This document shows, piece after piece, positions 39,988 to 53,444 of a stretch of 64,000 bases of DNA. Within the stretch, counting starts at the first letter, position 1; every line of letters begins with the position of its first letter. The notes under the pieces were generated by a model. It saw only the letters and a list, made by a program, of their open reading frames with translations. It was not told the origin of the DNA and searched no databases. Source of the DNA: Halomicronema sp. CCY15110 (GTDB lineage: Bacteria; Cyanobacteriota; Cyanobacteriia; Phormidesmidales; Phormidesmidaceae); assembly GCF_016888165.1 (NCBI RefSeq), contig NZ_JACSWC010000299.1, positions 46,193-110,192 of the forward strand, read 5' to 3'. The position numbers and the translations under genes were made by a program.

Positions 39988-40018
39988 TAACCTCAGAGAG
40001 CATCGCTAAAGCAAACTA

Positions 40019-40840
40019 TCACTGCAATAAACCGTGAACCGCCGACCAGCAGCGATCAGTCAGGGTCTGGGCATGTTGTGTCCCTTGCCGACCTTGATAC
40101 TGTTCGCGATCGCGGGGTGTCACCCAAATCGGCTCACCCACCCGGACTTCTACCTGGCGGTAAAACACCAGCGGATGCCCGCCCTCACGCTGAAACATCG
40201 GCTCACTCGGGTCGAATAATCCCAATAACCGGAGGGGAATCGGTGACTCAAAGCCCATCTCGTCAGACACGAGGGCCACAGGCAGCAGCGCCAACGGCTC
40301 CACCGGGACTCGCAACGCCAAATGCGCAAATCCCCGATGAAACGGCTGCAACTGCCGAGGCGAGTGCAACTGCACCATCGACTGTGCCCCTTCGGGAAAG
40401 ATGCCAATCATTTCTCGCTGCCGCAAGCGCCGATATCCCTGCCGAAAAAAGCGTCGCGGCGTATCTAACGGAAAAGCACCAAACTGATGCACCATGTCCC
40501 GCAACCCCGGAACGTGCTCCATATATTGATGGCATACAAACCCAATGGAGCGATCTAACCCGGCCATTAAGATGGGGACGTCAAGAGCACTGCGGTGATT
40601 GCTAACGACCAGTGTGGGAACCCCTTCGGGAATGTTGCGCTGCCCCGACACCGTCAGCTTAACGCCCGTCAAGTGAACCACGCCTCGGGATAAATCCAAT
40701 GGCCCAGGCATCTCTAAAAAAGGAACAGTTGGTATAGAGAGAGCGGTCATTAAGAGCCCACAAACCTTATAGCGTCGTTTACATTCCTTAATGTAGCAAT
40801 TTTCGCGTCGCCTGCTGGTGCATCGCAAGACAGATATCAC
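40019..40840 (-). CDS. plsC: 1-acyl-sn-glycerol-3-phosphate acyltransferase family protein
   Basis: HX4D motif VVSNHRSALDVPIL. FPEG motif IGIFPEGA. Confidence 0.7.
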   Translation of the reverse strand: MISVLRCTSRRRENCYIKECKRRYKVCGLLMTALSIPTVPFLEMPGPLDLSRGVVHLTGVKLTVSGQRNIPEGVPTLVVSNHRSALDVPILMAGLDRSIGFVCHQYMEHVPGLRDMVHQFGAFPLDTPRRFFRQGYRRLRQREMIGIFPEGAQSMVQLHSPRQLQPFHRGFAHLALRVPVEPLALLPVALVSDEMGFESPIPLRLLGLFDPSEPMFQREGGHPLVFYRQVEVRVGEPIWVTPRDREQYQGRQGTQHAQTLTDRCWSAVHGLLQ

Positions 40841-41207
40841 GACTGCCTTGAAGGGATCAATGTTGAACGTGAGCTATCGTTCCCCGCACTGAGTTTCCCA
40901 CACTGTGAGCATAGTCTGGGGAACTTCCCAACTGGTTTTCTAGTCTTTTGGTTGAGTAATGGCGCTAATCGTAGTCACGAGGACTGGCCGATTGATGCCG
41001 ACGACCGGCGATCAAGGTTGCCTGAGTTCCCCCTTCTCGATATCGGCGACGGTAGAGCCACTCGCGATCGCGGCAACCACCCCCGTGCCGTCAACGCGGC
41101 TGTTCTAAGTGATTTTATCGCTGACTTCCCATCGAGCAAATTCGCGATCGCGCCATGCATCTTCCACCCCTGTGTTCATTCTTTTTTCTCGTCTTCGGAG
41201 TTTTTCT

Positions 41208-42446
41208 ATGTCTAATGCTTTTCGTTGGCAGTCCGGAACCGCTTTGTTGTTAGCTTTGGGCTTAGGCGTTGGGACAATTGTGCCCACCATCACCGCTGCC
41301 CCTGTGGTAGCTCAAACACAAACCCAGGTTCAATTTAGCGATGTGCCATCAGGGCACTGGGCCAGTGAATTTATCGTGAGTTTGGCTGCCCAAGACATCA
41401 TTGCTGGCTTCCCCGATGGCACCTTCCGCCCCGAAGCCCCCGTCACGCGGGCTCAATATGCAGCGATGCTGCGCCAAGCCTTCAACCAGTCTTCAGTGCG
41501 GGGTGCGACCACTTTTGTGGATGTGCCTGCTGGCTACTGGGCCACTGAGGCCATCCGTGAGGCCAATATGATGGGTTTTCTATCCGGCTATCCCGGCAAC
41601 GAATTCCGACCCAATCTGAACATTCCTCGGGCCCAAGTCCTCGTTTCTCTGGCGAATGGCCTGAATTACACCGCGACCAATACCAACAGCGTGCAGATTT
41701 ATCGCGATGCCGCCCAGATTCCTGACTATGCCGTTACTAGCATCGCCGCCGCTACTGAGCAGCGCATGGTGGTGAATTATCCCGACCTGCAAGCACTCCA
41801 GCCCAATCAAACGGCCACCCGCGCCGATGTCGCTGCCTTTATCTATCAAGCACTTGCGAGCCAAGGTCAGGTCGCGATGATCGACTCGCCTTACATTGTG
41901 GGACAGTCCATCGTGGTGAATGACTCAACCGTTCCAGCGGGTACAGTCCTCAGCGTAAGTTACGAAGAAAGTGACACCGTTGTGGTGCTGCCCGAAGAAA
42001 CCACCGACTTAACGCTTGAGGTGACCCAAGCAGTGACCAATACCAGTGGCAACATTTTGATTCCCGTCGGGAGTCAGATTGTCGGAGAACTGCGGCCCAG
42101 TGGCGAAGGCACCCAGTTTGTGGCGCAAGAACTCGTGCTCCCAGAGGGCGATCGCTTCACCTTGAACGCCACCTCACAAACGGTCACCACTACCGAAACC
42201 ATTAGCCGGGGGGCCACCCTGGGCGAAACCCTCTTGGGGGCTGCCATTGGCTCCGGGGCTGCCGCTGCGATCGCGGGCCTCACGGGTGATCAGCGCGTCG
42301 AGACCTTGGAAGTATTGGCCGGCACTGCCACTGGAGCCACCATTGCCCGCTTACTGGGGCGGGATCAAATTGAGGTGATCACAGTTAACCCCAGCGAAGA
42401 TCTAAGCTTGGTATTGAATGCACCGCTGACATTATCGGCGCAGTAG
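41208..42446 (+). CDS. S-layer homology (SLH) domain protein
   Basis: Signal peptide. Three SLH repeats (FSDVPSGHWASEFIVSLAAQDIIAGFPDGTFRPEAPVTRAQYAAML etc.). Start set at ATG 41208, preceded by ggag. Confidence 0.75.
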   Translation: MSNAFRWQSGTALLLALGLGVGTIVPTITAAPVVAQTQTQVQFSDVPSGHWASEFIVSLAAQDIIAGFPDGTFRPEAPVTRAQYAAMLRQAFNQSSVRGATTFVDVPAGYWATEAIREANMMGFLSGYPGNEFRPNLNIPRAQVLVSLANGLNYTATNTNSVQIYRDAAQIPDYAVTSIAAATEQRMVVNYPDLQALQPNQTATRADVAAFIYQALASQGQVAMIDSPYIVGQSIVVNDSTVPAGTVLSVSYEESDTVVVLPEETTDLTLEVTQAVTNTSGNILIPVGSQIVGELRPSGEGTQFVAQELVLPEGDRFTLNATSQTVTTTETISRGATLGETLLGAAIGSGAAAAIAGLTGDQRVETLEVLAGTATGATIARLLGRDQIEVITVNPSEDLSLVLNAPLTLSAQ

Positions 42447-42565
42447 ACCGACAACGATAGCGGGCTGCCAGGAATCTCCCTGATCGCCCGCTAACGCTTT
42501 TCCAATCGAGCCCCAAAACAAAACCTCTGAGACAGTTTCAAAGTCTCAGAGGTTTAATGCTTTTA

Positions 42566-42638
42566 TACCCCCAGGGGAATTCGAATCCCCGTCGCCTCCG
42601 TGAAAGGGAGGTGTCCTAGGCCTCTAGACGATGGGGGC
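42566..42638 (-). tRNA. tRNA-Glu (anticodon UUC), no encoded CCA
   Basis: Minus-strand sequence GCCCCCATCGTCTAGAGGCCTAGGACACCTCCCTTTCACGGAGGCGACGGGGATTCGAATTCCCCTGGGGGTA. 7-bp acceptor stem GCCCCCA/TGGGGGT. T-loop GGGGATTCGAATTCCCC. Anticodon loop CTTTCAC. Confidence 0.85.
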
Positions 42639-42758
42639 CTGTGTTGTTCGACACTGATCAATATAAACAAATGCTGTACCCGTGTCAAACAAATAAGCTG
42701 AGCTCAGACCGACTATCTAAAGCCAGGTAAAACCAGGTCTCTCAGCCCAGGGTATATG

Positions 42759-43058
42759 TTACTTCAAACCGCTAGCATTGCGTAGCCTGATGACCTGACG
42801 GCGCATTTCGGGGGAAGCTTCCAGCTCAGTCACTTCGTTTACCTTGACATCAGCATGCAAGGGTTCAAGATAGTTATCGCTGCCGTAGGAGTACGCATCG
42901 ATGAGAATCTGCAAAAGCTGATCGCGATCGCACTGAGCCAGTTCCTCTTCAATCAGGCGAAACTTAAGTGTTACCTCACACTCATAGATTCCCACCTGCG
43001 GCGTCGATGGTTGGACTGCCGAATGCACATTTGTGGAACAGAGTTTCATCTTTGTCAT
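42759..43058 (-). CDS. Hypothetical protein
   Basis: ORF only. Confidence 0.3.
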   Translation of the reverse strand: MTKMKLCSTNVHSAVQPSTPQVGIYECEVTLKFRLIEEELAQCDRDQLLQILIDAYSYGSDNYLEPLHADVKVNEVTELEASPEMRRQVIRLRNASGLK

Positions 43059-43884
43059 GCCGCTTAATCAGAACAGTAGTGACTTTATGGACGGAATGCC
43101 TCATCGTTATTCAGCCTATTCGCGTTTGATGAGGGCATCGCCTAAGTGCTTAACTCCATAGAACCAATTTTTTCTGGAAAAGGGCGCATTGGGATGGCGA
43201 TTTTACTGGATTAATAAATTCCCTTTCTATTAGCTTTAAACAAACGTCTGATCTCCCAGAATACACTGATGAAACCAGTTCAAAATGACCAAAACTCTTT
43301 ACAAGAAGGAGTCTTGGGGGTTATCTAGCCACCCCTCATCTCACCCATGAAATGGGTATGATAATGGCGTCGAATCAGCCCCATTTATCCGCAAAAAGAC
43401 TTAAATCAAGTCCACCTTCTCAGTTTTTTCACACACAAAGGCTTGATTAAATCGAAGTACTGAAACAGATTTCGTGTAAATAGTTTCAGTGCATCAGCAT
43501 TTACACTAGCAACGGGGTGGGTAGTAGCTTGAAATCGATCACTCTAAAATCTCAGTAGAATCTCGCACCTACGATTGGATAGCAGTCGGTGACCGGGAAA
43601 TGTAGTTGGTGCAGTTATCGATGCGGCAAAGGTAATCACTGCATGCGGCCCCAGGGGACATTCATCATTAGGAGATACAGAAAGCCCAGGTAAGTCTCAT
43701 CTGAGAGCTTCGGATGTCCTGACATATCTTCTGAAACTGCCGATTTTGAGGAGATTGACGCCTCAATGCTCCCAGTGGTGAAAGACGGGCGTTGCTTAAG
43801 AATCCTTTAGGTTCAGCGGTTGCCTGACTTTGCTGCATCACTCAACCGATCTTGCGAATCCAGTATTTGACAGCGGATAGACCA

Positions 43885-45759
43885 TTAGTTTGCTGGATTA
43901 GTGGATGAGACTTGCCACCAGCGGACGGTTTCATCGGCGGCGGTGCTGAACAGGGTCTGGCCATCCGGCGCGAATCGCAAATCACTGATCGTCCAGCCGT
44001 GATGCAGCACTGTGACCCGGTGGCGGTTGGCCGAGGCCCATTGCCAGAGGCGAATGGTGCCATCGCGACTGCCGATCGCCAGCCAGGTTTCATCCGCACT
44101 GAGGGCGATCGCGCTGACGGCATCCTGACATCGTTCGAGTTCTGCGTGCTGCCCAAAATCGAGGAGCGACCACACCACGACGCGCCCGGTGCGATCGCCG
44201 GTGATGAGGGCGGGGTCGCTGGCGCTCAGGGTCACCGCTCGTAGCGGGGCTTTGGCCGTCCAAGTATGCAGTAATTGACCGCTGGGGAGTGCCCACAGTC
44301 TCAAGGTGCCCGCTTCGCCCACACTGGCCAGGCGCGTGCCGTCGGGACTCAGCGCGAGATCGTTGACTCGGCCCGCATGACGCCTGAGATCGAAGCTGCG
44401 GGTTCCCTGGTTCAGATCCCAAAGCGAGATGCGGCCGGCGACATCAGCCACCGCCAACGTTTTGCCATCGGGGGTGAGGGCGATCGCGGTAATTTGCCCA
44501 CCGGGCTGTCGCAACGATTGTTGCAATCGATAGGTGGTCAAATCCCATTGCAAAATCTGGCCGTCTTGCCCAGCGGTGATCAGGCGATCGCCCGCTGGCT
44601 GAAACGCTACTGCCGTGACGGCATCCCGGTGACCCGCGCCGAAGCCCAGCCGGGGGGCCAGGGTTTGTAGCACTTCGCCAGTTTGCCGATCCCAAAGCTG
44701 TACGGTGTGATCGCTGTTGGCGGTGGCTATGGCTCGACCATCGGGACTCAGGGCCAGGGCGTTCACCGTGCGCCCTGGGGTCGGCCAGGTGTGGGTACAG
44801 CGCCAGGTGGTTGTCTGAGGGGCCAGCAGCGAGTTGGGCCGCGATCGCGGTGGCCCCAGTCCGGCGGGTGCCAGCTCTGCCAAAACGGCGTCAGCCGTGG
44901 CGTAACGACTGCGGAGCGATCGCGCCACCAGGCGATCAAGCACTCGCCCTAGGGCCTCGCCCACGGGGGTCGGCGCAAAGTCACGCCACACCCACCGATC
45001 TGCCGCCACGGAGTAAAGATCAAAGGGATGTTGCCCCGTCAATAAATGCAGGCAAGTGATGCCCAAGCCGTAGAGATCGCTGGCGGGCACGGCTTTGCCC
45101 AGGGCTTGCTCGGGGGCGGCGTAACCGGCGCTGCCGATAATAGTGCCCGTGCGTTCCAGTTCCGTGGCAGTGGGGGCGGTGCGGGCAGCGCCAAAATCGA
45201 CGAGGATCGGCGGCCCCTCGGGAGGCAGCAAAATATTTTCGGGCTTGATGTCGCGATGGATGATGCCCTGTTGGTGAATGAATTGCAGCACGGGCAACAG
45301 CGCCATCAGCAGCGATCGCACCTGCGGTTCATCAAAGACTCCGTCGGCCTGCAAGACCTGCTCCAAATTGCGTCCGGCGATGTAGGACTGCACCAGACAA
45401 AGGTCGCGGCTCGATTCCAGAATGGCGATGAGTTGAGGAATCTGGGGGTGTCGTCCCAGCGTGGCGAGGCGTTTGGCCTCGGCCAAGTCCCGCTCACGGC
45501 TGCCCTGCGATCGCACAATTTGTTTGATCACGCATTGCTGCGGCGGCGACTCGCCTTCATCCCACGCTAAAAACGTGCGCCCAAAGCCCCCCCGCCCCAG
45601 TTCCTTCACAGGCCGAAAGCGCTGACCCAATCGCAACCGCGCCCCGCAGGACTGGCAGCGATCGCGATCGTCCCCATTTTCCGGGTGGGGGCATTGGGGA
45701 TTGATGCAGAGGGTGACCACGACAGTGTGCGCCATGCATGGCGGTATCAGTGCTCTCAA
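43885..45759 (-). CDS. Ser/Thr protein kinase with N-terminal zinc ribbon and C-terminal WD40 repeats
   Basis: CxxC...CxxC N-term. Kinase motifs GRGGFGRTF, HRDIKPENILL, DFG, APE. C-terminal WD40 repeats (IRLWD, LWDL etc.). Confidence 0.85.
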   Translation of the reverse strand: MRALIPPCMAHTVVVTLCINPQCPHPENGDDRDRCQSCGARLRLGQRFRPVKELGRGGFGRTFLAWDEGESPPQQCVIKQIVRSQGSRERDLAEAKRLATLGRHPQIPQLIAILESSRDLCLVQSYIAGRNLEQVLQADGVFDEPQVRSLLMALLPVLQFIHQQGIIHRDIKPENILLPPEGPPILVDFGAARTAPTATELERTGTIIGSAGYAAPEQALGKAVPASDLYGLGITCLHLLTGQHPFDLYSVAADRWVWRDFAPTPVGEALGRVLDRLVARSLRSRYATADAVLAELAPAGLGPPRSRPNSLLAPQTTTWRCTHTWPTPGRTVNALALSPDGRAIATANSDHTVQLWDRQTGEVLQTLAPRLGFGAGHRDAVTAVAFQPAGDRLITAGQDGQILQWDLTTYRLQQSLRQPGGQITAIALTPDGKTLAVADVAGRISLWDLNQGTRSFDLRRHAGRVNDLALSPDGTRLASVGEAGTLRLWALPSGQLLHTWTAKAPLRAVTLSASDPALITGDRTGRVVVWSLLDFGQHAELERCQDAVSAIALSADETWLAIGSRDGTIRLWQWASANRHRVTVLHHGWTISDLRFAPDGQTLFSTAADETVRWWQVSSTNPAN

Positions 45760-45809
45760 TCTACCGAAATTGGTCGCGATCGTTCACTGCATCCAACCGT
45801 TCTCAACCG

Positions 45810-46580
45810 TTAAGGGGCGACCTTGGCCGTCGTACCGCGCAGGAGATCCATGATTTCGTCGCAATGGTGGTGAAACGGGTCAGTCCGGCGGACGGCATAG
45901 GCGCGGTGCGGCCCCAGGTGGATGCTCACTTCTGCGGCGATCGTGCCAGGACGCGCTGAGAGCACGTAGATGCGCTGGGAGAGAAACACGGCCTCGCTGA
46001 CATCGTGAGTAATCATCAAAATGCTGATGCCCAGGCGATCCCATAGTTCCAGTAAAAATTCCTGCATACTTTCTTTGGTCTGCACGTCTAAAGCGCCAAA
46101 GGGTTCGTCCATCAGCAAGATTTTGGGATGGTTAGCCAGGGCGCGGGCGATCGCTACCCGCTGTTTCATACCGCCGGACAGTTCCTTGGGCAGCGATCGC
46201 GAAAACTGCGCCAGCCCCACCACATCCAGATAGCGCGACGCTTCTTCGCGCCGCTGCTTGGCCGCCATACCTTGCAGCTTCAGGCCAAATTCCACATTCT
46301 CCTGCACCGTCATCCAGGGATAGAGGGTGTAGCTCTGGAACACCATGCCGCGATCGGCCCCCGGCCCAATCACCGGCTGCCCATCCACGGTGATTTCCCC
46401 CGCTGTGGGCATCTCTAGCCCCGCCACCAGTCGCAGCAAAGTGGACTTGCCGGAACCCGACGCGCCGACGGCACACACAAATTCCCCCGTTTCAACGTGC
46501 ATGTTGATGTCTTTGAGGGCGACGAGCGGGCCTTGGGGCGTGTTGAACTGTTTGTGGACTTTGGCGATTTCCAGGTGCAT
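45810..46580 (-). CDS. ABC transporter ATP-binding protein (NitT/TauT nitrate/sulfonate/bicarbonate family), part of the guanidine-associated transporter
   Basis: Walker A GASGSGKSTLL, signature SGGMKQRV, Walker B LLMDEPF. Confidence 0.85.
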   Translation of the reverse strand: MHLEIAKVHKQFNTPQGPLVALKDINMHVETGEFVCAVGASGSGKSTLLRLVAGLEMPTAGEITVDGQPVIGPGADRGMVFQSYTLYPWMTVQENVEFGLKLQGMAAKQRREEASRYLDVVGLAQFSRSLPKELSGGMKQRVAIARALANHPKILLMDEPFGALDVQTKESMQEFLLELWDRLGISILMITHDVSEAVFLSQRIYVLSARPGTIAAEVSIHLGPHRAYAVRRTDPFHHHCDEIMDLLRGTTAKVAP

Positions 46581-46582
46581 GG

Positions 46583-46640
46583 GTTTGGGGTGAGGGTAGC
46601 TGGGTAGCTGGGTTGTTGGGTAGCAGGGTGTGAGGGTGCT
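46583..46640. repeat. Array of degenerate octamer repeats (TGGGTAGC-like), left arm of an inverted pair flanking the four-helix-bundle gene
   Basis: ggtgagggtagctgggtagctgggttgttgggtagcagggtgtgagggtg, read directly. Confidence 0.6.
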
Positions 46641-46693
46641 TGGGTGGAAAAGGGGGAATTCTGGAAGTGTCTGTCTACACAGGGTGCGGGTGT

Positions 46694-47077
46694 ATGGGTA
46701 AGGGAATAGTCAGGGTGTATCGGGATTTGGAGGTGTATCAGACAGCATTTGCGGCAGCGATGGAGATTTTTGAGGCTTCTAAACGGTTTCCAGTGGAAGA
46801 GCGGTATTCGTTGACGGATCAGATTCGACGGTCTTCACGTTCTGTTTGTGCAAATTTGGGAGAAGCATGGCGGAAGCGACGTTATCGGGCCGCTTTCGTA
46901 GCAAAGCTGTATGACTGTCAAGCCGAGGCGACCGAGACCCAAATTTGGCTAGAGTTCTCTGTCAAATGCCAATATCTTGAACCGGAATTAGCTCGCAACC
47001 TCTATCGTGCCTACGACCAAGTGCTGGGTCAGCTTGCCAATATGGTCAAAAACGCCTCTCAATGGACAGTCCAGTAG
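46694..47077 (+). CDS. Four-helix-bundle protein (23S rRNA intervening-sequence protein family)
   Basis: IVRVYRDLEVYQTAFAAAMEIFEASKRFPVEERYSLTDQIRRSSRSVCANLGEAWRKRRY is the family pattern. Antisense to the surrounding ABC operon. Start set at internal ATG 46694. Confidence 0.7.
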   Translation: MGKGIVRVYRDLEVYQTAFAAAMEIFEASKRFPVEERYSLTDQIRRSSRSVCANLGEAWRKRRYRAAFVAKLYDCQAEATETQIWLEFSVKCQYLEPELARNLYRAYDQVLGQLANMVKNASQWTVQ

Positions 47078-47170
47078 TTGTTTACCCTCACACTCTCACA
47101 CTCAACTACCCAGCCACCCAACTACCCTCACACCCTTCCACTCCTACTTCACCGCACCTACTTCACCGCC
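47078..47170. repeat. Inverted copy of the octamer-repeat array (GCTACCCA/CACCCTCA units), right arm
   Basis: ccctcacactctcacactcaactacccagccacccaactaccctcacaccc is the reverse complement of the left arm. Confidence 0.6.
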
Positions 47171-48129
47171 CACTGACAGGTCATCCGCATGGCAGCTTGC
47201 AGAGAGAGATCGAGGATGAATCCGATGAGGCCCAGCACCAGTAAGCAGGCGAAGATGTCGTCGGTTTGAAAGAATTTTTGGGAGATGGCGATGCGCTTGC
47301 CGAGGCCGCTGTCGGCGGCGACGAGTTCGGCGACGATGACCAGGTTCCAGGAGGCGGCCATGTTGACGCGCAGGGTGTCAAAGAGGCTGGGGATAACGTA
47401 GGGGGTGATGACTTGCATCAGTACCTGGCGGCGATCGCCCCCCAAGGTATAAGTCGTCTCAATCAGCTCTTTGGGCACAAACTTGACCGCATCCATAATC
47501 ATCAGCGTGTTGAAAAACACGGTACCGATAAAAATCAGCGCAATTTTCGGTTCTTCACCCAGGCCCAAATAAATGATCAAAAGGGGAATAAAGGCCGGAG
47601 CGGGCATGTAACGAACGATGCCGACGAGGGGTTCTAGCAGCGATCGCACGCTGCGAAACGCCCCCATGCCAATACCCAGCGGAATCGCCACCAGCGCCGC
47701 CAGCAAAAAGCCCGCCGACACCCGCAAAAAGCTCGCCAGCGTGTCGGTCAGCAAATAGCCCTCTTGCCACAAGGTCACCAGGGACGCGATGACCATGCCG
47801 GGCGTCGGTAGAAACTTGTTGTCAATCCAGCCGGTGCTCGCGATCGCCCACCACAGCAACAACGGCACCAACACCGACATCACCATCAGCACCCATTTCA
47901 GCCGGATTGGGATGTCCTCAGCAATGCGCCAAAACACCGTCGGCTTCAGGCTAGGGGCCGCTGTAGACGACTCTGTATACGTGGGTGGAGAGGAGACGAC
48001 TGTCATGATGAGACCTGCGAGAGAGCGGCTAATTGAGAATGCCCGGTTTTGAGGAAGAGTGTGAGAGTAGCTGGGTAGTAGGGTGGCTGGGTAGCAGAGT
48101 GGCTGGGTAGCGGGCTGTGAATCCCTCAC
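47158..48129 (-). CDS. ABC transporter permease (NitT/TauT family)
   Basis: Permease signature region with conserved G..P spacing. 323 aa, 6 TM helices. Confidence 0.8.
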   Translation of the reverse strand: MRDSQPATQPLCYPATLLPSYSHTLPQNRAFSISRSLAGLIMTVVSSPPTYTESSTAAPSLKPTVFWRIAEDIPIRLKWVLMVMSVLVPLLLWWAIASTGWIDNKFLPTPGMVIASLVTLWQEGYLLTDTLASFLRVSAGFLLAALVAIPLGIGMGAFRSVRSLLEPLVGIVRYMPAPAFIPLLIIYLGLGEEPKIALIFIGTVFFNTLMIMDAVKFVPKELIETTYTLGGDRRQVLMQVITPYVIPSLFDTLRVNMAASWNLVIVAELVAADSGLGKRIAISQKFFQTDDIFACLLVLGLIGFILDLSLQAAMRMTCQWAVK

Positions 48130-48170
48130 ACCCTCACACCCTCACACCCTGCCACCCAAGCCCTAAGGGC
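48040..48170. repeat. Octamer-repeat array in both orientations (GGGTAGTAGGGTGGCTGGGTAGC... then CCCTCACACCCTCACACCCTCACACCC)
   Basis: Read directly. Intergenic between permease and binding-protein genes. Confidence 0.6.
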
Positions 48171-48191
48171 AGGCTTCGCCAACACACTCCC

Positions 48192-49247
48192 CTACGCATT
48201 CGCCTCGGCATAGGCCGTCACAAACTGGTCATCCAACACGGCTTCCAGATCCGGCGCTTCGGGAATGAAGCCGACTTCGACCATGAAGTTCGCCATCTCT
48301 TCAGCGGCGTAGGGCATATGCACCATGCTGTCGCCAGGGCTGAAGGCTTCCAGGTTTTCTTCGAGGGTGAAGAAGCGGGTGCCTTCCAGGTACTTTTCGA
48401 AGTCAGCGGCATCCACGCTGGCGCGATCGGCCATGATTTCGTAGGCGCGTTCCTGGTTTTCGTCAATAAAGGTGAGGATGTCGAACCAGGTGTTGACCAA
48501 GGCTTGCACCACTTCTGGCTGCTCGTCGATCAGGGTTTGGGTCACCACGAGCAGGTCAGGGATGGCACCGGGGAAGTCGGCAGAACTGGTGAGTTCTTTG
48601 CTGCCTTCACGGGTCAGCGCCGTTTCCCAGAAGGGTACCCAACCCGCAAAGGCGTCGGCTTGTCCAGCGGCAAAGGCGGCAGCGGCAGCGCCGGTTTCCA
48701 GGTTTTCAATATTCACATCATCGCGGGATTGGCCCGCTTCTTCCAGGGCCAGGGTCAGCAAAAAGTCGCCAACGACGCCTTCTTCCAGCGCCACGGATGC
48801 GCCGACGAGGTCAGCAACCGTCTCGATTTCCGCCGACACGATGACTTTGTCATTACCCGCCGAGTTGTCGTTCACCGCCACGGCGACTTCGCCATTCACG
48901 GCTTCTCCGGCGAAGGAAATGGTGTCGTTGAGGGTTTGGCAGTTGGCGTCGAGTTGTCCAGAGGCGAGCGCTTGCATGGATTCTAAATAGCCGTCGAACC
49001 AAATGAGTTCCACGTTGACGCCGTTGGCGTCGAAGAGTCCTTCTTGTTCGGCGATCGCCCAAGGCCACCAACCAGCCCAACTGCTGTAGCCCATCACAAT
49101 GGGCGTTTCATTGATGAATTCGACGGCTTCGCCAGCGGTATCAGTATCGGTCGGGGCGTCGGCAGTGTCTTGAGCGCACCCGATGGTGACAAATAGGGTA
49201 CAAAAGAACGCCAGTAACACTGGCAAGAGAGAGCGACGTTTCATCAT
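48192..49247 (-). CDS. ABC transporter substrate-binding lipoprotein (NMT1/NitT/TauT family), putative guanidine-binding
   Basis: Signal/lipobox (LLAFFCTLFVTIGC). 351 aa periplasmic binding protein that precedes permease and ATPase. Confidence 0.75.
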   Translation of the reverse strand: MMKRRSLLPVLLAFFCTLFVTIGCAQDTADAPTDTDTAGEAVEFINETPIVMGYSSWAGWWPWAIAEQEGLFDANGVNVELIWFDGYLESMQALASGQLDANCQTLNDTISFAGEAVNGEVAVAVNDNSAGNDKVIVSAEIETVADLVGASVALEEGVVGDFLLTLALEEAGQSRDDVNIENLETGAAAAAFAAGQADAFAGWVPFWETALTREGSKELTSSADFPGAIPDLLVVTQTLIDEQPEVVQALVNTWFDILTFIDENQERAYEIMADRASVDAADFEKYLEGTRFFTLEENLEAFSPGDSMVHMPYAAEEMANFMVEVGFIPEAPDLEAVLDDQFVTAYAEANA

Positions 49248-49287
49248 GGTGTTGAGACAGTGAACAAACTAGACAGCAAACACTTGA

Positions 49288-49977
49288 TCAGGCAGAAGTC
49301 AGTTCTGGAGACTTCACGGCAGAGCGCACCCAGTCAAACCAGAGCGCTAATCCTTCCCCAGACTTGGCCGACACCGGGATCACGGTGACGTGGGGATTGA
49401 TCTGGCGCACGTTGGCTTCGATCAGCGCTAGATCCACATCTAAATAGGGAGCGAGATCAATTTTTGTAATCAGAAGCACATCTGCTTCGCGAAACATGAC
49501 GGGATACTTCAGCGGTTTGTCTTCGCCCTCGGTGACGCTAAGCAGGGCAACTTTGGCGTGTTCTCCCACTCCAAACTCAGCGGGACAGACGAGATTGCCC
49601 ACATTTTCGACAATCACCATATCGAGGTCTTGGGGCGCATAGTCATGGCTCAGGGTGTGAATGCCGCCAGCGACCATGCGGGCGTCGAGGTGGCAGGCGC
49701 GGCCCGTGTTGATGGCGATCACGGGAACGTCGTATTGGCGGAGGCGATCGGCATCGAGTTCGGTGGTCATGTCGCCTTCGATCACGGCCAGGTTGAGGTC
49801 AGTCGTCAGGGCCGCCAGGGTCTTTTCTAGCAGGGCGGTTTTGCCCGCACCGGGGCTGCTCATCAGGTTTATGCAGGTGATGCCCCAGGCGTCGAAGTGG
49901 GTGCGGTTGTGGTCAGCGCCTTCCTGGTTGGCGTGGAGGAGGTTGATGCCGAGGGTGTCGTCGATGATTTGGTGCAT
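49288..49977 (-). CDS. hypB: HypB-like GTPase (Ni-insertion accessory protein, GhaB-like)
   Basis: [15 protein letters not shown]-loop. HypB/UreG family layout. Start moved to the internal MHQ Met to remove the 64-bp overlap with the upstream gene. The track ORF start at 50097 is over-extended. Confidence 0.75.
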
Positions 49978-50033
49978 GGTTTTAAAAGGGTTGGGGCGCA
50001 CGGCCGTGCGCCCGTACAGGATGCGTGAATGGG

Positions 50034-51392
50034 TCAGAAAAATTTCAGGTAGCGTTGGTGTTCCCAGTCGGAGATGTGGGTGTGGTAGTCCTCCCATTCT
50101 TGGCGTTTGAAATCGGTGTAGGTGCGATACATCAGCGGCCCCATCACCGCCTGGCTCAGCGGGTCACGCTCGAAGGCGTCAACCGCTTCTGACAGGGTGC
50201 GGGGCAGCAGATCGATGCCCATCGCATCCAGTTCCGGCAGGGTGTAGTTGTACATGTTTTCGGTGTGGGGATCGCCGGGGTCGAGTTCCTGTTCGATGCC
50301 CTCCAGTCCCGCTGCGAGCATCATCGCCGCCCCCAGGTACAGGTTGGTGGAAATATCGGCGGCGCGACACTCCACCCGTCCCCCCGCGAGGGGAATGCGG
50401 AGCATGTTGGTGCGGTTGTTGTTGCCGTAGCAAATGTAGACCGGGGCCCAGGTGAAGCCGGACATGCTGCCTTTGCGGATCAGGCGTTTGTAGCTATTGA
50501 CCGTGGGGCAGGTGACGGCGCAGATGGCTTTGGCATGGCGCAGGACGCCCGCGATGAACTGATAGCCGAGTTTCGAGAGCTGGCAGCCACGGGGATCACT
50601 GGGGTCTTCAAACAGGTTTTTGCCCGTCTCCAGATCGGCGAGGGACATGTTGTAGTGCGCGCCGCTGCCGGTGCGGTTGGCGAAAGGCTTAGGCATGAAG
50701 CTGGCGAAGTAGCCGTGTTTGCGCACAATTTCCTTCACCATGAGGCGAAAAAAGGTGAGGCGATCGCCCATGGTCAGCGCATCCGCGTAGGCAAAGTCGG
50801 TCTCAAACTGGCCGTTGGCATCTTCATGGTCAAAGGAATACACGTCCCAGCCGAGGTGGTTCATGGTGTCCACCAGTTCGGTAAGCCAGCCATAGTTGTC
50901 GAGCAGGCCGGTGAGGTCGTAGCAGGGCTTGGCCAGGGTGTCGCGATCGCTGATCGGCTCAAACCCCTGCTCGGTTTCTTTAAACACAAAGAATTCCGTC
51001 TCAATGCCCAGGTTGAACTTAAAGCCCAGGCTGGCGGCTTTGTCCAACATCCGCTTCAGAATGATGCGGGAACACGCCTCGAAGGGTTGACCGGACAGGT
51101 ACAGATCGCTGGCGAACCAGACCACTTCCTTATTCCACGGCAGGATGGTGGCGGACTGGGCATCGGGCATCGCCGCCACTTCTTCGTCGCTGATGTCCTG
51201 GGGCACGCCGTCCAGGGCCGCCCCGGTGAACAGTTCGGAGCCCTGCATCATTTGGCCCAGGTGGCTCAGGGGCACCATTTTGGCTTTCGACATGCCGTGA
51301 ATATCGACGTAGCTGGCGAGGGCATATTTGACGCCCTGGGATTCCAGCGAAGATTTGAGGGTGGCGATTTCGGCAATGGTGTCGGTGGTCAT
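50034..51392 (-). CDS. Glutamine synthetase family protein (type I-like catalytic domain, 452 aa)
   Basis: [11 protein letters not shown] beta-grasp/catalytic region. GS-like ATP-binding regions throughout. Confidence 0.85.
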
Positions 51393-51515
51393 GGGTGGGT
51401 GGAGAAGGGGATGGCAGCGATGGTCGGTGAAACATTCGGGTGCGGTAGGGGCGAGGCATTCTCGTTTGAAATGTTGTGGTTGAGGCTTAAAAGTTACTGC
51501 GAGAATGCCTCGCCC

Positions 51516-51896
51516 CTACGGGATGGGGGAATTGGGCGATCGCGCAGTCTGGGCATATTGCACGCGATCGATTTTGAGTTCCCGACCGGAGCGAATATCG
51601 TCGAGGGGCGATCGGCAGGTGGGGCAGGCATATTGCTGCCCGATTTCGGGACGGTATTCGGCCTGGCAGGGGTGGCAAAAGGCGATCAGCGGCGTTTCTT
51701 GAATCACCAGTTCGGCCCCATCGAGAAAGGTGCCCCGCGTCTGCACCTCAAAGGCGAACTGCAAGCTGGCGGGTTCGACGCAGGTGAACTTGCCCACAGT
51801 GAGAAACACCTTTTCTACGGGCGGGCGATCGGGCTGCGACTCCCACCAGTCTCGCAGGGTGATGACGAGGGCCTTGGTCATGTCGGTTTCGTGCAT
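51516..51896 (-). CDS. hypA: HypA-like Ni-insertion protein (GhaA-like)
   Basis: MHE N-terminus. Zinc finger CHPC...CPTC. Length approx 126 aa. Confidence 0.8.
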   Translation of the reverse strand: MHETDMTKALVITLRDWWESQPDRPPVEKVFLTVGKFTCVEPASLQFAFEVQTRGTFLDGAELVIQETPLIAFCHPCQAEYRPEIGQQYACPTCRSPLDDIRSGRELKIDRVQYAQTARSPNSPIP

Positions 51897-52180
51897 GGCG
51901 GCGGTAGGAGTGTGAGGGTGAATGGGTGGTTGGGTAGGGGGTGGCTGGGTAGGGGGTGGGAGAGTGAGTGAAGTGGGTGGGGTGAAGGGTAGGTGAGCTT
52001 GGTGTGTGATGGAAGCCTTACGCAATCAGGCTGAAATCCTCGATTTCTCGTTTCCAAGGTTGGGATTTACAAAAAAATCAGATCACTTCCGAACGATTTT
52101 TCCATTCGCCTACATCACCCACTCCACCTATTACCACCCTGCTACCCCCACACCCTGCCACCCTCACACACTTCTACTCC
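51897..52180. repeat. Two octamer-repeat arrays (G-rich then C-rich orientation) flanking an approx 110 bp spacer between hypA-like and gdmH
   Basis: gtgagggtgaatgggtggttgggtagggggtggctgggtagggggtggg ... and ccaccctgctacccccacaccctgccaccctcacaca, read directly. Confidence 0.55.
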
Positions 52181-53346
52181 CACGCCTGATCAACGTTCAT
52201 ATTCGCCTCGTCGCTGATATAGTCCGGCTTCTCCTGGCGAGGTAGCTGACCGGAGACGACCAGATGGGCCATGGTGTCGCAGATGACGCGGGTGGCCATG
52301 AGAGCAGTCATGTCACTGACATCGTAGGGGGGCGAGACTTCCACGATTTCGATGCCGCAAACGGTGGTTTCCTGCACGATGCGTTTGAGCAGGTGCAGGG
52401 CTTCGCGGGGCATCAGGCCGCCGGGTTCGGGCCAGCCGGTGCCGGGGACAAAGCCCGCATCAATGCAGTCAATGTCGAAGCTGATCCACACGCAGTCGGT
52501 ACCGTCGGTGGCTTTTTCAATGGCAAAATCAGCCGCCGCATCTAGGCCCATTTCCATAATGTCGGTGACGGTGAGGATGTTGGTGCCGCGCTCGCGACAG
52601 ACTTTGACGCCCTGCCGGGGGACTTGCCAGCCACCGATGCCGAGCTGCACGAGATTTTCGGCGGGCGCGTTGGCCATGTTGGTGGCGTGGAACCAAGGGC
52701 AGGTGTGCATCCGTTCGTCGAGGTCGGTTTCCTGGGTGTCGACGTGGCGATCGAAGTGGATGATGCCGACTTTTTTATCCCCTAAATGACGGCAGACGCC
52801 GCGCACGGTGGGGAAGCCGATGGAGTGGTCGCCACCCATAATGATCGGGAAGGCCCCGGAGCTGAAAATGTGGGCAATGCCTTTGGAAATTTGGTCAAAG
52901 GATTTTTCATTATTGGCGGGAATGGTGAACACGTCGCCCACATCGCAGAGGGTGATTTGCTCCCGCAGATCGACCCCGAGCTCAAAGTTGTAGGGGGTGT
53001 AGAGGGCGGAGATTTTGCGGATGCCCTGGGGGCCAAAGCGGGTGCCGGGGCGGTAGGTGGTGCCAGAGTCGTGGGGCACGCCGACGATCGCGACATCGTA
53101 GTTCCCCACCTTCCGCACATCTTCTAAATAGGGCGCTTTGAGGAAGGTGTTGATGCCCGCGTAGTGGGGCAACTCGCCGCGTGAAAAGGTGGGAATGGTG
53201 CGATCGCGAATGCTCTCTGCCGCCTCTAGCCCGTAGGTCAAACCTTGGTCAACTTCTTGTTGCCAGCCCGTCATGGGCAAGCGCGCTTCCTTTTGCAACG
53301 CCTCATTGGCCTCACTGGGGCGGCGAAAGGTGGGTTCATCCGTCAT
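52174..53346 (-). CDS. gdmH: Ureohydrolase (arginase/agmatinase family), putative Ni-dependent guanidine hydrolase
   Basis: Agmatinase-family motifs GGDHSI, DAH-type metal ligands (HFDRHVD, SFDIDCID). Start at MTDEP ATG 53346 with RBS aaggag (gives 390 aa). Sits downstream of a guanidine-I riboswitch and upstream of hypA/hypB-like genes. Confidence 0.7.
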   Translation of the reverse strand: MTDEPTFRRPSEANEALQKEARLPMTGWQQEVDQGLTYGLEAAESIRDRTIPTFSRGELPHYAGINTFLKAPYLEDVRKVGNYDVAIVGVPHDSGTTYRPGTRFGPQGIRKISALYTPYNFELGVDLREQITLCDVGDVFTIPANNEKSFDQISKGIAHIFSSGAFPIIMGGDHSIGFPTVRGVCRHLGDKKVGIIHFDRHVDTQETDLDERMHTCPWFHATNMANAPAENLVQLGIGGWQVPRQGVKVCRERGTNILTVTDIMEMGLDAAADFAIEKATDGTDCVWISFDIDCIDAGFVPGTGWPEPGGLMPREALHLLKRIVQETTVCGIEIVEVSPPYDVSDMTALMATRVICDTMAHLVVSGQLPRQEKPDYISDEANMNVDQAWE

Positions 53347-53390
53347 CACAATCTCCTTTGACAGGTCATTTGCCAGCGTATTCAGCACCA

Positions 53391-53444
53391 AAACGAAAGC
53401 CCGAGAGGGCGACAGAGACAAGATCTCTATCTAACCTCCCGGGC
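53391..53444 (-). terminator. Intrinsic terminator of the riboswitch expression platform (GCCCGGGAGG ... CCCUCUCGGGC + UUUCGUUUU)
   Basis: The stem's 5' arm overlaps the conserved 3' end of the aptamer. A U-tract follows. Read from the minus strand. Confidence 0.6.

What the first reader, a model, noticed from the sequence alone, without database searches (positions are those of the whole stretch)
46583..47170. Four-helix-bundle (rRNA-IVS family) gene inserted antisense inside the ABC operon, bracketed by inverted octamer-repeat arrays
The 127-aa four-helix-bundle gene lies on the opposite strand between the permease and ATPase genes of a co-directional operon. Its two flanks are mutually inverted arrays of TGGGTAGC-like octamers. 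The arrangement looks like a small mobile or recombination-prone cassette. Members of this protein family are typically found in intervening sequences.
Basis: seen in the sequence. Interest (0 to 1): 0.55.

Follow-up and report, generated by a model that had tools for sequence, protein, structure and literature searches.

The report
IVS-like hairpin gene cassette in operon
A small, well-conserved four-helix-bundle gene sits in the loop of a long hairpin made of inverted 8-base repeat arrays, wedged between two genes of a transporter operon. The same layout surrounds relatives of this gene across many bacterial phyla, including true ribosomal-RNA intervening sequences, which links a large protein family of unknown function to a common class of short tandem repeats.

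Summary
A 127-aa TIGR02436/PF05635 four-helix-bundle (4HB) gene (46694-47077, +) lies antisense between the permease and ATPase genes of an ABC operon. A G-rich octamer array (46581-46649) and its C-rich inverted partner (47084-47142) bracket it.

The arms form a stem of about -85 kcal/mol on either strand. Syntenic relatives show that the whole 577-nt block is an insertion. In one relative the permease stop overlaps the ATPase start (TAATG). In two relatives a sister copy sits 5 kb away upstream of hypA, in opposite orientations. At that hypA site this window keeps only gene-less arrays.

The architecture is not local:
- 53 of 63 testable homolog loci from about 10 phyla have flank inverted-repeat scores above every control placement.
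- So do 22 of 29 distant relatives (21-41% identity).
- 5 of 6 XCC0516-like plasmid copies have both arms, and the sixth has one.
- One of these plasmid copies is a genuine 23S rRNA intervening sequence in Azospirillum.

The protein is under strong purifying selection (dN/dS 0.03-0.12).

Best reading: an IVS-type hairpin cassette outside rRNA, gained, lost and flipped by recombination at its arms. The role of the protein is unknown. I found no paper that describes this family-wide link.

The parts
45810..46580 (-). ABC transporter ATP-binding subunit (NitT/TauT type), the host gene downstream of the insertion. Its ATG (46578-46580) directly abuts the array.
   Evidence: PF00005 E 1.7e-34; NCBIfam taurine/SaoA/nitrate-type ATPases; orthologs in L001, L009 and L032.
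46581..46649 (.). 5' arm: G-rich octamer array (GGGTAGCT, GGGTTGTT, GGGTAGCA, GGGTGTGA, GGGTGCTT, GGGTGGAA). Read on the operon strand it is the C-rich leader that runs up to the ATPase start codon.
   Evidence: TRF period 8, 4.5 copies; direct-repeat family D1 and inverted repeats I1-I5; absent from the empty site in L009.
46650..46693 (+). Cassette leader between the arm and the ATG. It contains GGGAATTCT (46654-46662), a motif (consensus GGGAATTAT) found about 30-35 nt upstream of the ATG in most cyanobacterial cassettes. It may be a -10-like promoter element (inferred).
   Evidence: Alignment A1 of 20 cassette leaders. Bacteroidota-type cassettes carry TAnnTTTG at the equivalent place. The sigma-70 consensus scan found nothing.
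46694..47077 (+). Four-helix-bundle protein gene (127 aa, TIGR02436 / PF05635, '23S rRNA IVS protein' / S23p family). It is the loop cargo and lies antisense to the operon.
   Evidence: HMM hits. AF2 model with pLDDT 93.7 and four helices. Foldseek matches 2GSC (TM 0.84), 2RLD (0.75) and Avd 4DWL (0.76). dN/dS is 0.04 against the L001 ortholog. The protein is 100% identical to a Halomicronema sp. CCY15110 protein.
47084..47142 (.). 3' arm: C-rich octamer array complementary to the 5' arm. It starts 6 nt after the stop codon.
   Evidence: TRF period 8/16; inverted repeat I1, 51 nt at 82%; stem in the RNA folds.
47143..47156 (.). 14-nt tandem duplicate of the last 13 nt plus stop codon of the permease gene (CCTACTTCACCGCA), at the outer edge of the arm. 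L001 has only one copy. It is not a target-site duplication.
   Evidence: TRF period 14, 1.9 copies, 100% match; family D4; comparison with L001.
47158..48006 (-). ABC transporter permease, the host gene upstream of the insertion.
   Evidence: PF00528; TauC/SaoP-like. In L009 its stop codon overlaps the ATPase start.
48064..48157 (.). Gene-less inverted octamer pair (G arm 48064-48111, 11-nt loop, C arm 48123-48157) in the spacer between the binding-protein and permease genes. It has the same unit family and the same polarity.
   Evidence: It folds to -44 kcal/mol (+) and -54 kcal/mol (-), against about -36 when shuffled. It is present in L001 and absent in L032 and L009.
51897..52173 (.). Gene-less inverted octamer pair with a loop of about 140 nt, between the arginase-family gene and hypA. 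The same junction holds a 4HB cassette in L032 and L009 and is clean in L001. It is probably a relic or an alternative landing site.
   Evidence: It folds to -126 kcal/mol against -93 shuffled. It shows a weak match to the L009 cassette leader (score 39 against a shuffle maximum of 32).

Best explanation
The element is an IVS-type hairpin cassette. [quoted passage not shown]

Shown:
- The unit is an insertion relative to an uninterrupted TAATG junction in a relative.
- Its arms pair into a roughly 55-bp imperfect stem on both strands.
- Homologs across phyla have the same anatomy, including a genuine 23S rRNA intervening sequence.
- Copies differ between close relatives in presence, site and orientation.
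- The protein is under strong purifying selection.

Inferred:
1. In the operon transcript the stem extrudes the antisense gene and brings the permease stop and ATPase start together at its base. It is probably cut by RNase III, as in rRNA intervening sequences. This would be why insertion into a translationally coupled junction is tolerated.
2. The 4HB gene is transcribed from its own promoter inside the arms.
3. Gain, loss, relocation and flipping happen without a transposase. The routes would be homologous recombination or gene conversion between the many array pairs of like polarity in the genome, intramolecular recombination between the inverted arms (inversion), and replication slippage across the hairpin base (clean loss).
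4. The protein is a toroidal pentamer in solved relatives and is related to the nucleic-acid-binding Avd. It most likely acts on the arrays or their RNA, but what it does there is unknown.
For: Anatomy and significance are given.

Insertion polymorphism: L009 has GTGCAT|TATTTCACC with no spacer. The window and L001 have the cassette. L032 has a 100-nt remnant-like spacer containing GAATTC. At the hypA junction L001 is clean (TAG-GAC-ATG), the window has arrays only, and L032 and L009 have 4HB in opposite orientations. The four copies from these syntenic genomes form one clade in a neighbour-joining tree.

Family-wide architecture:
- 53 of 63 testable loci have flank inverted-repeat scores above all of about 200 control placements, and 60 of 63 are at <=0.05.
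- Period 8 dominates, and period 7 occurs in a Bacteroidota-type protein clade.
- All 6 XCC0516-like plasmid copies have arrays.
- 22 of 29 relatives at 21-41% identity have them.

The true IVS has the same anatomy. L071 is a 23S rRNA gene (Rfam 2529 bits) with purine heptamer arm, 4HB ORF and complementary arm. The Coxiella IVS has a 28-bp terminal-repeat stem cut by RNase III and 3-4 tandem GACAGAT heptamers before the ORF (PMC4990558). The crystal-structure prototype XCC0516 has a GGGAATC array at its start (supplement of PMC4692102).

Evidence for an own promoter is the conserved GGGAATTAT and TAnnTTTG between arm and ATG. Purifying selection is shown by dN/dS of 0.03-0.12. Array pairs with large loops contain 4HB, and gene-less pairs have loops of 4-185 nt.
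Against: - No direct evidence of RNase III cleavage, transcription or translation exists for this locus.
- No promoter or terminator consensus was found, and there is no Rfam family.
- There is no target-site duplication, transposase or second copy in the window, so current mobility is unproven.
- Several cassettes sit at the same site across genera (cas4 site, sites A and B). These are mostly stable, vertically inherited residents.
- Differential loss of two ancient paralogs could explain the ABC/hypA pattern instead of relocation. The tree has no support values, and L032 carries a frameshift.
- Gene-less array pairs far outnumber 4HB genes, so the arrays may have a life of their own.
- The de novo origin of arrays at a clean junction is unexplained.
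- Cyanobacterial RNase III specificity for such G.U-rich, mismatched stems is assumed.
Confidence: 0.6

Rival explanations
1. Host regulatory system. The G-rich and C-rich arrays are cis-acting elements (hairpin, G-quadruplex or i-motif) that tune stability or translation at gene junctions. The 4HB protein is their trans-acting binding factor. Its gene sits inside a pair because it is autoregulated, not because it is selfish or mobile.
For: Arrays outnumber 4HB genes: there are 4 further array sites in this window, many per 12 kb in Nodosilinea, and 186 arrays in Xanthomonas campestris. They abut stop and start codons with fixed geometry (PMC4692102). GGG recurs every 8 nt while the other positions vary, as expected for G4 formation or periodic protein binding. 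The protein is strongly conserved. Seven polar residues are invariant down to 22% identity. Solved relatives are pentameric rings (2GSC and 2RLD have five chains each).
Against: Orthologous junctions in close relatives work with no arrays at all (L009 at the ABC site, L001 at hypA, L032 and L009 at the SBP-permease spacer), so no conserved regulatory need is visible. The same cassette occurs in unrelated contexts (rRNA, cas, BREX-like and ABC loci). The arms are mirrored copies that pair, which G4 function alone does not need. This rival is not exclusive of the best explanation.
Confidence: 0.22
2. RAYT/REP-like relationship. The 4HB protein is the factor that creates, spreads or maintains the short tandem arrays. 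Candidate routes are templated 3'-end extension or directed recombination. The gene-less pairs are its non-autonomous products.
For: The gene is flanked by inverted copies of the genome's own dispersed repeat, which is the signature that identified RAYTs. Gene-less pairs share the unit family and the strict polarity of the cassettes (33/33 and 27/30 have G>C in the 5' arm). Two cassettes 3 kb apart in one genome carry different units (L043). The 7-nt period follows a protein clade that includes an Opitutales copy rather than following host phylum. The protein is related to Avd, a cofactor of a reverse transcriptase.
Against: There is no catalytic motif, and no polymerase or nuclease partner is encoded nearby. 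Units within one array are heterogeneous, unlike products of a fixed template. Units track host lineage as well as protein clade, so the co-variation is confounded. I could not test whether genomes without 4HB lack such arrays.
Confidence: 0.12
3. Coincidence. This is an ordinary resident gene that happens to lie between two of the generic intergenic repeats (STRR-like) that litter this genome.
For: The same octamers occur at 4 other places in the window without the gene.
Against: The bracket recurs in 53 of 63, 6 of 6 and 22 of 29 independent homolog loci, against within-locus controls. It also recurs in genomes with quite different units and in an rRNA gene. The whole block, arrays included, is missing from the orthologous junction in L009.
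Confidence: 0.03
4. Accessory variability determinant (Avd) of a diversity-generating retroelement, or its remnant.
For: There are weak hits to bAvd (PF22296, E 6e-4) and to the Avd equivalog (23.4 bits). The fold resembles 4DWL (TM 0.76).
Against: The Avd model scores far below its cutoff of 80 bits. The neighbours within about 7 kb are a kinase, ABC transporter, HypA/B, GS-like and arginase-family genes, with no reverse transcriptase. No template/variable repeat pair was found. There is no homolog in the phage collection.
Confidence: 0.02

Closest known systems
23S rRNA intervening sequences that carry an S23p/4HB ORF (Leptospira, Coxiella burnetii; here also Azospirillum lipoferum 4B, L071)
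   Same: The protein family is the same. The ORF lies in the loop of a stem formed by terminal inverted repeats. Short tandem purine-rich repeats (heptamers GACAGAT in Coxiella, AGAGGAC/GGATGAC in Azospirillum) sit 5' of the ORF, with the complement 3'. Presence is sporadic between lineages.
   Different: The host site is a spacer between two protein-coding genes, not helix 9/25/45 of 23S rRNA. The ORF is antisense to the host transcript. The arms are longer (about 60 nt, 8-nt period). The ORF is under strong purifying selection, whereas the Coxiella ORF is reported to be decaying and probably untranslated (PMC4990558). RNase III excision has not been shown here.
G-rich heptamer simple-sequence repeats of Xanthomonas and Nostoc (GGGAATC, GGGGAYT; Rehm et al. 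2015, PMC4692102) and cyanobacterial STRR repeats
   Same: Both are tandem 7-8-nt G-rich units in intergenic spacers. The G strand follows stop codons and the C strand precedes start codons. Many occur as convergent inverted pairs (70 in X. campestris). The G3N4-5 periodicity is capable of forming G-quadruplexes.
   Different: That work treats the repeats as stand-alone structural elements and does not mention the 4HB family. Here the pairs bracket a specific gene family, and the paper's own table places repeat 15 at the start of XCC0516. The unit here is an octamer with four variable positions.
REP/REPIN elements and their RAYT genes
   Same: A single small gene is flanked by inverted copies of a short repeat that is dispersed, mostly as hairpin-forming pairs, through the intergenic regions of the same genome.
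   Different: RAYTs are HUH Y1 transposase homologs with known catalytic motifs, whereas 4HB has none. REPs are fixed 20-40-nt palindromes, not arrays of 7-8-mers. 4HB genes are often multi-copy.
Avd of diversity-generating retroelements
   Same: It has a homologous four-helix-bundle fold (TM 0.76 to 4DWL) and the solved forms are pentameric. It has a nucleic-acid-binding role in a mobile-element context.
   Different: There is no reverse transcriptase and no TR/VR pair, and the Avd HMM scores below its cutoff. Avd genes are not known to be bracketed by arrays (this was not tested here).
MITEs / small non-autonomous transposons
   Same: It is of short length, has inverted ends, lies in an intergenic position, has a hairpin-forming transcript and coexists with gene-less derivatives.
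   Different: There is no target-site duplication, no cognate transposase and no conserved terminal sequence. The 'ends' are variable-length arrays that differ between orthologous copies.

Membership tests
TIGR02436 / PF05635 four-helix-bundle protein family (S23p, '23S rRNA IVS protein') | Scores above the curated HMM cutoffs | tested here: met
   PF05635 scores 97 bits (cutoff 33.8) and TIGR02436 scores 89.7 bits (cutoff 24).
TIGR02436 / PF05635 four-helix-bundle protein family (S23p, '23S rRNA IVS protein') | Four-helix-bundle fold like XCC0516 (2GSC) and BT_0352 (2RLD) | tested here: met
   The AF2 model has pLDDT 93.7 and helices at 13-29, 40-60, 65-91 and 97-119. Foldseek gives TM 0.84 and rmsd 1.3 to 2GSC, and TM 0.75 to 2RLD. 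phmmer gives E 1.4e-7 and 1.6e-5.
TIGR02436 / PF05635 four-helix-bundle protein family (S23p, '23S rRNA IVS protein') | Conserved motif RxxxSxxxNxxE (Lin 2006; Zhang and Ye 2013) | tested here: met
   R46, S50, N54 and E57 are invariant in alignment A2, together with E36, Q43 and E81. The motif is quoted in PMC3936711.
TIGR02436 / PF05635 four-helix-bundle protein family (S23p, '23S rRNA IVS protein') | Homopentameric toroid | not testable with these tools
   Only a monomer was modelled. 2GSC and 2RLD each have five chains.
23S rRNA intervening sequence (IVS) element | Inserted in a 23S rRNA helix (9, 25 or 45) | tested here: not met
   The flanks are ABC permease and ATPase genes. There is no rRNA or other Rfam hit in 45500-52600.
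23S rRNA intervening sequence (IVS) element | Terminal inverted repeats that close the element into a long stem with the ORF in the loop | tested here: met
   A 51-nt inverted repeat at 82% complementarity. The stem is present in the MFE and centroid folds on both strands. The gene-removed hairpin folds to -85 kcal/mol.
23S rRNA intervening sequence (IVS) element | Short tandem repeats 5' of the ORF (Coxiella heptamers) | tested here: met
   An octamer array lies at 46581-46649. The same feature is seen in the true IVS of L071 and in Coxiella.
23S rRNA intervening sequence (IVS) element | Excision from the host transcript by RNase III | not testable with these tools
   It is inferred from stem length only.
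DGR accessory protein Avd | Matches the Avd equivalog model above its cutoff | tested here: not met
   NF033474 scores 23.4 bits against a cutoff of 80. PF22296 scores 20.7 against 40.
DGR accessory protein Avd | Adjacent reverse transcriptase and template/variable repeat pair | tested here: not met
   Ten neighbouring proteins in 39175-55213 have no RT domain. There is no TR/VR-like long direct repeat near the gene.
MITE / inverted-repeat transposon | Target-site duplication at the insertion | tested here: not met
   The empty sites (L009 at ABC, L001 at hypA) compared with the filled sites show no duplicated host bases. The 14-nt duplicate at 47143-47169 is a one-sided tandem repeat.
MITE / inverted-repeat transposon | Several near-identical copies in the genome and a cognate transposase | tested here: inconclusive
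   Only 64 kb of the genome is available. It holds one 4HB copy (tblastn), four other array sites with different loops, and no transposase.
REP/RAYT-type repeat-gene association | Gene bracketed by inverted copies of the genome's dispersed repeat | tested here: met
   The same octamer family occurs at 1051, 38349, 48064/48123 and 51916/52132 and around the gene.
REP/RAYT-type repeat-gene association | The gene encodes an HUH Y1 transposase | tested here: not met
   It is a four-helix-bundle protein with no transposase domain.
G-rich 7-8-nt SSR arrays (Rehm 2015) / STRR | Tandem G3+N4-5 units, intergenic, with the G strand after stop codons and the C strand before start codons, often as convergent pairs | tested here: met
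   The 5' arm has G>C in 33/33 and 27/30 pairs. This geometry is as described in PMC4692102.
G-rich 7-8-nt SSR arrays (Rehm 2015) / STRR | Formation of G-quadruplex / i-motif | not testable with these tools
   The sequence is compatible (GGG every 8 nt), but no structural test was possible.

The most novel reading that the evidence does not exclude
TIGR02436 four-helix-bundle proteins and the inverted arrays of 7-8-nt repeats form one previously unrecognised, phylum-spanning genetic system. The G-rich heptamers of Xanthomonas and Nostoc and the stems of rRNA intervening sequences would belong to these arrays; cyanobacterial STRR-type repeats may too, but I did not examine them. The protein would bind its own array type and be responsible for generating, spreading or maintaining the array hairpins, in a RAYT/REPIN-like partnership with a non-enzymatic-looking protein. 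rRNA IVSs, 'cas-associated' 4HB genes and gene-less array pairs would all be manifestations of it. The strict polarity (G-rich 5' arm on both strands) would then be a footprint of the mechanism, for example templated extension of 3' ends at a break.
Probability: 0.2. Interest if true: 0.85.

Novelty: new variant of a known kind. Interest (0 to 1): 0.68.

Why it matters
Three long-standing loose ends meet here:
- **The protein family.** The '23S rRNA IVS protein' family is large: 6,225 clusters at 50% identity match this one protein. It has had crystal structures since 2006 but no function.
- **The repeats.** G-rich hepta/octamer tandem repeats in cyanobacteria, Xanthomonas and others have been known since 1990 (own knowledge) and have no known origin.
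- **The rRNA IVSs.** The origin of rRNA intervening sequences is unknown.

The gene family turns out to be the characteristic cargo of inverted array hairpins wherever it occurs, so all three become one problem with direct tests. Does the protein bind the arms? Does RNase III cut the stems? Do arrays depend on the gene?

Practically, the result explains why these genes turn up inside cas, restriction and transporter operons without belonging to them. It also warns annotators and guilt-by-association screens against reading function from their neighbours.

Tried and rejected
- **Rfam.** An E-value-mode scan of 45500-52600 found no RNA family.
- **Promoter and terminator scan.** The sigma-70 and intrinsic-terminator consensus scan of 46400-47300 found nothing.
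- **PADLOC.** No defence-system model matched.
- **Phage collection.** tblastn of the protein found no homolog, so there is no phage link.
- **hypA-site loop as a decayed 4HB gene.** I tested the 140-nt loop. It has no coding similarity, only a marginal match to the L009 cassette leader, so 'relic' stays a suggestion.
- **Target-site duplication.** None is present at either junction.
- **Protein-versus-repeat-unit co-variation.** Units follow both protein clade and host lineage, so the test is confounded. I kept only the 7-nt against 8-nt period observation.
- **Orientation of cassettes relative to neighbours.** All four arrangements occur, and the ORF-based neighbour calls are noisy in GC-rich genomes, so I drew no conclusion.
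- **Unit-permutation null for mirrored arms.** 33 of 37 cassettes are significant, but the null also breaks up array contiguity, so I use it only as support.
- **'G array upstream, C array downstream' as a marker of gene orientation.** I rejected this, because the pattern is symmetric under reverse complement.
- **Literature.** Eight searches found no paper that links the family to flanking arrays.
- **Loci in IMG/VR without arrays.** No reverse transcriptase ORF was evident by eye among the ORFs of at least 200 aa in the five such loci I checked (L079, L082, L088, L093, L099; no domain scan was run). L079 and L080 sit inside a PglX-like reading frame. I did not follow this up.
Full report
**1. 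What is in the window**

The window is cyanobacterial, with 100 HIP1 sites in 64 kb and 55% GC. The 4HB protein is 100% identical to one from Halomicronema sp. CCY15110.

On the minus strand lies a co-directional cluster:
- arginase-family gene (52174-53421)
- hypA (51516-51896)
- GS-like gene (50034-51392)
- hypB/cobW-like gene (49288-50097)
- SsuA-like binding protein (48192-49247)
- permease (47158-48006)
- ATPase (45810-46580)

Between permease and ATPase, on the plus strand, is a 127-aa ORF (46694-47077). It matches PF05635 (97 bits) and TIGR02436 (89.7 bits). Its AlphaFold model (pLDDT 93.7) has four helices. It superposes on XCC0516 (2GSC, TM 0.84), BT_0352 (2RLD, TM 0.75) and, more distantly, the DGR protein Avd (4DWL, TM 0.76).

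**2. The flanks**

The left flank, 46581-46649, is an array of octamers with constant GGGT and four variable bases. The right flank, 47084-47142, is its complement.

- The best inverted repeat is 51 nt at 82% complementarity.
- The flank-to-flank score (28.5) exceeds all of about 200 control placements in the window (maximum 12.5).
- The variants of the unit appear in mirrored order in the two arms.
- With the gene removed, the arms fold to -85 kcal/mol on either strand, against about -60 with a shuffled 3' arm.
- The stem survives in the MFE and centroid folds of the whole 591-nt RNA on both strands.

**3. It is an insertion**

Four syntenic relatives were recovered.

At the ABC site:
- L069, a 95% identical metagenome contig, has the identical cassette.
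- L001 (Leptolyngbya sp. SIOISBB) has an 88% identical ortholog at the same junction, with related but different units.
- In L009 (Leptolyngbya sp. RL_3_1) the permease stop overlaps the ATPase start (TAATG) with nothing between.
- In L032 the junction holds a 100-nt spacer with two or three degenerate G units and a GAATTC that recalls the cassette leader.

At the junction between the arginase-family gene and hypA, the pattern is the converse:
- It is clean in L001 (TAG-GAC-ATG).
- It carries a 4HB cassette in L032 and in L009, in opposite orientations relative to hypA.
- In this window it carries a G array, a loop of about 140 nt and a C array, but no gene.

The four 4HB genes of these genomes form one clade in a neighbour-joining tree. 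This is consistent with one lineage that changed site. Differential loss of two old paralogs is not excluded.

There is no target-site duplication at either junction. The 14-nt repeat at 47143-47169 is a one-sided tandem duplication of the permease 3' end.

**4. The architecture is a hallmark of the family**

Loci were retrieved by protein similarity only, so the flanks are unbiased.

*Genome sample.* In 63 testable loci (the window plus 62 genome loci), 53 have flank inverted-repeat scores above every control placement in the same locus, and 60 are at <=0.05. The loci come from Cyanobacteriota, Chloroflexota, Acidobacteriota, Planctomycetota, Verrucomicrobiota, Bacteroidota, Elusimicrobiota, Calditrichota and others. 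The period is 8 in most. It is 7 in a protein clade made of Bacteroidota plus one Opitutales copy. Units differ widely:
- GGGTGGAT in Nodosilinea
- GGGGCAGA in Nostocales
- GGAGACAA in Planctomycetota and Anaerolineales
- GCAATAG and CAGTCGG in Bacteroidota

*Plasmid sample.* A second sample covered the XCC0516-like subfamily on plasmids, at 22-31% identity to the window protein. All six had arrays; in one, only the 3' arm remains, next to an ISL3 element.

*IMG/VR sample.* A third sample at 21-41% identity from IMG/VR contigs gave 22 of 29 above all controls. Some of these loci are near-duplicates.

*A true rRNA IVS.* One plasmid locus, L071 from Azospirillum lipoferum 4B, is a genuine 23S rRNA gene (Rfam LSU, 2529 bits). 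Its intervening sequence reads purine-rich heptamer array, then 4HB ORF, then complementary array.

*Support from the literature.*
- The Coxiella IVS paper reports a 28-bp terminal-repeat stem cut by RNase III and three to four tandem GACAGAT heptamers before the ORF (PMC4990558).
- The supplementary table of Rehm et al. 2015 places a GGGAATC array at the start of XCC0516, the crystal-structure prototype, without comment (PMC4692102).
- Zhang and Ye 2013 noted these genes inside cas operons (PMC3936711). I see the same in L007, L011, L012, L016, L072 and L074. In each locus whose sequence I inspected (L012, L072 and L074), it is a cassette in a spacer.

**5. The cassette is self-contained and the protein is functional**

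Cyanobacterial copies share a GGGAATTAT motif about 30-35 nt upstream of the ATG, between the G arm and the ATG. Bacteroidota-type copies have TAnnTTTG at the equivalent place, which is that phylum's -7 promoter consensus (own knowledge). The stop codon is followed almost at once by the C arm.

Orthologous pairs give dN/dS of 0.03-0.12. Seven polar residues (E36, Q43, R46, S50, N54, E57, E81) are invariant down to 22% identity.

The family is large: 6,225 clusters at 50% identity match this single sequence.

**6. Gene-less pairs and a polarity rule**

The same octamer family occurs without a gene at 1051, 38349, 48064/48123 and 51916/52132 in the window. It also occurs many times in the flanks of related loci.

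Close inverted pairs fall into two classes by loop length: 4-185 nt (no gene) or about 360-580 nt (4HB gene). The single large loop without 4HB that I checked (L017) holds an unrelated host ORF.

In every 4HB pair (33/33) and in 27 of 30 gene-less pairs, the 5' arm is the G-rich one. This pattern reads the same on both strands, so it says nothing about gene orientation. The opposite polarity is simply not seen.

The arrays usually fill the whole space between an upstream stop codon and a downstream start codon. Rehm et al. described this geometry for the Xanthomonas repeats, including 70 convergent pairs.

**7. How it most likely works**

*Shown.* A hairpin-forming unit with its own gene has entered a translationally coupled junction. 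The unit is polymorphic in presence, place and orientation among relatives. It has the anatomy of rRNA intervening sequences.

*Inferred.*
- In the operon mRNA the stem folds the antisense gene out and places the permease stop and ATPase start at its base. A stem of more than 20 bp is the classical RNase III substrate, as demonstrated for IVSs. Either processing or proximity would keep the ATPase expressed.
- The 4HB gene is transcribed from inside the arms.
- Movement needs no transposase. Array pairs of like polarity offer homology for ectopic conversion. Inverted arms promote inversion, as in L032 against L009. Hairpins are prone to clean deletion by replication slippage, as at the L001 hypA junction.
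- The protein probably acts on the arms or their RNA. This is suggested by its Avd kinship, its pentameric relatives, its conserved polar residues and its constant physical linkage to arrays. What it does there is open.

**8. Rivals**

- A host regulatory regulon, with arrays as operators and 4HB as their binder, is compatible with much of the data. It is weakened because close relatives function with clean junctions.
- A RAYT-like role in making or spreading the arrays is the most novel reading that is not excluded.
- Coincidence and a DGR Avd role are contradicted.

**9. Caveats**

- Only 64 kb of the source genome is available.
- Many loci are MAG contigs. The L032 copy has a frameshift that may be an assembly error.
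- Some samples contain near-duplicates.
- The tree has no support values.
- The controls are within-locus placements rather than matched genes.
- Nothing about transcription, cleavage or binding has been measured.
- The literature search covers open-access text only.

**10. Verdict**

The finding is confirmed and its interpretation supported. The element is best filed as an IVS-like 4HB hairpin cassette outside rRNA, a new variant of a known kind. The wider result is that the whole protein family travels inside inverted short-repeat arrays. I could not find this described, and it makes the function of both partners testable.

Noticed in passing
window 47143-47169: A perfect 14-nt tandem duplication (CCTACTTCACCGCA/C) copies the last 13 nt and stop codon of the permease gene at the outer edge of the C arm. 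L001 has a single copy. This suggests that slippage recruits host sequence into the repeat zone.
   Followed up: partly
window 48064-48157 and 51897-52173; also 1051-1077 and 38349-38372: Gene-less inverted octamer pairs occur in two other spacers of the same operon (loops of 11 nt and about 140 nt), and there are two solo arrays elsewhere. All belong to the same GGGT[AG]G[CT]N unit family, with the G-rich arm 5'.
   Followed up: yes
window 52028-52055; L006 1293-1320: The loop of the hypA-site pair contains AGGCTGAAATCCTCGATTTCTCGTTTCC. This matches 24/28 (E 0.005) the loop of a gene-less pair at a non-syntenic site in Nodosilinea sp. P-1105. It may be a second kind of loop cargo, such as a small RNA or promoter. 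There is no Rfam hit.
   Followed up: partly
window 45810-53421, minus strand: The gene order is arginase-family, HypA, GS-like, HypB/CobW, SsuA-like binding protein, permease, ATPase. It resembles the Ni-dependent guanidine hydrolase cluster (gdmH with HypA/B-like accessory genes and an ABC importer) described in Synechocystis (own knowledge; not tested). Three of its junctions carry array hairpins.
   Followed up: no
L007, L011, L012, L016 (genome loci); L072, L074 (plasmids): 4HB cassettes sit inside CRISPR-cas operons: next to the cas4 start, between cas6 and cas4, and between cmr2 and cmr3. In L072 the arrays fill spacers of only 36 nt. This probably explains the earlier report of this family as 'cas-associated'.
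   Followed up: partly
L078, L079, L080 (IMG/VR contigs): The 4HB ORF lies within what reads as a PglX-like (BREX methyltransferase) gene region, at the same position in different contigs. L078 has arrays, while L079 and L080 do not. It may be a cassette that splits or sits inside a protein-coding gene.
   Followed up: no
L032 6001-6383: The hypA-site 4HB copy of Cyanobacteria bacterium J06626_4 has a one-base frameshift after about 35 codons. It is either a pseudogene or a MAG error.
   Followed up: no
L043 5661-6440 and 8707-9191; L055 1108-1728 and 2570-3203: Two 4HB cassettes within about 1-3 kb in one genome carry different repeat units (ACGGAGAG against GAAGGGTA; GACCCCT against GTCGGACG). 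The unit is therefore a property of the cassette and not only of the host genome.
   Followed up: partly
window 296-698: A long 12/24-nt periodic repeat (CCACGCCG...AAAAA) lies inside ORF 186-884 (+). It is a repetitive coding region unrelated to the octamers.
   Followed up: no
L073 (Nostoc sp. PCC 7120 plasmid gamma) 1399-1900: This 4HB gene has only the C-rich 3' arm. An ISL3 transposase gene ends 78 nt upstream, so the IS insertion apparently removed the 5' arm.
   Followed up: no
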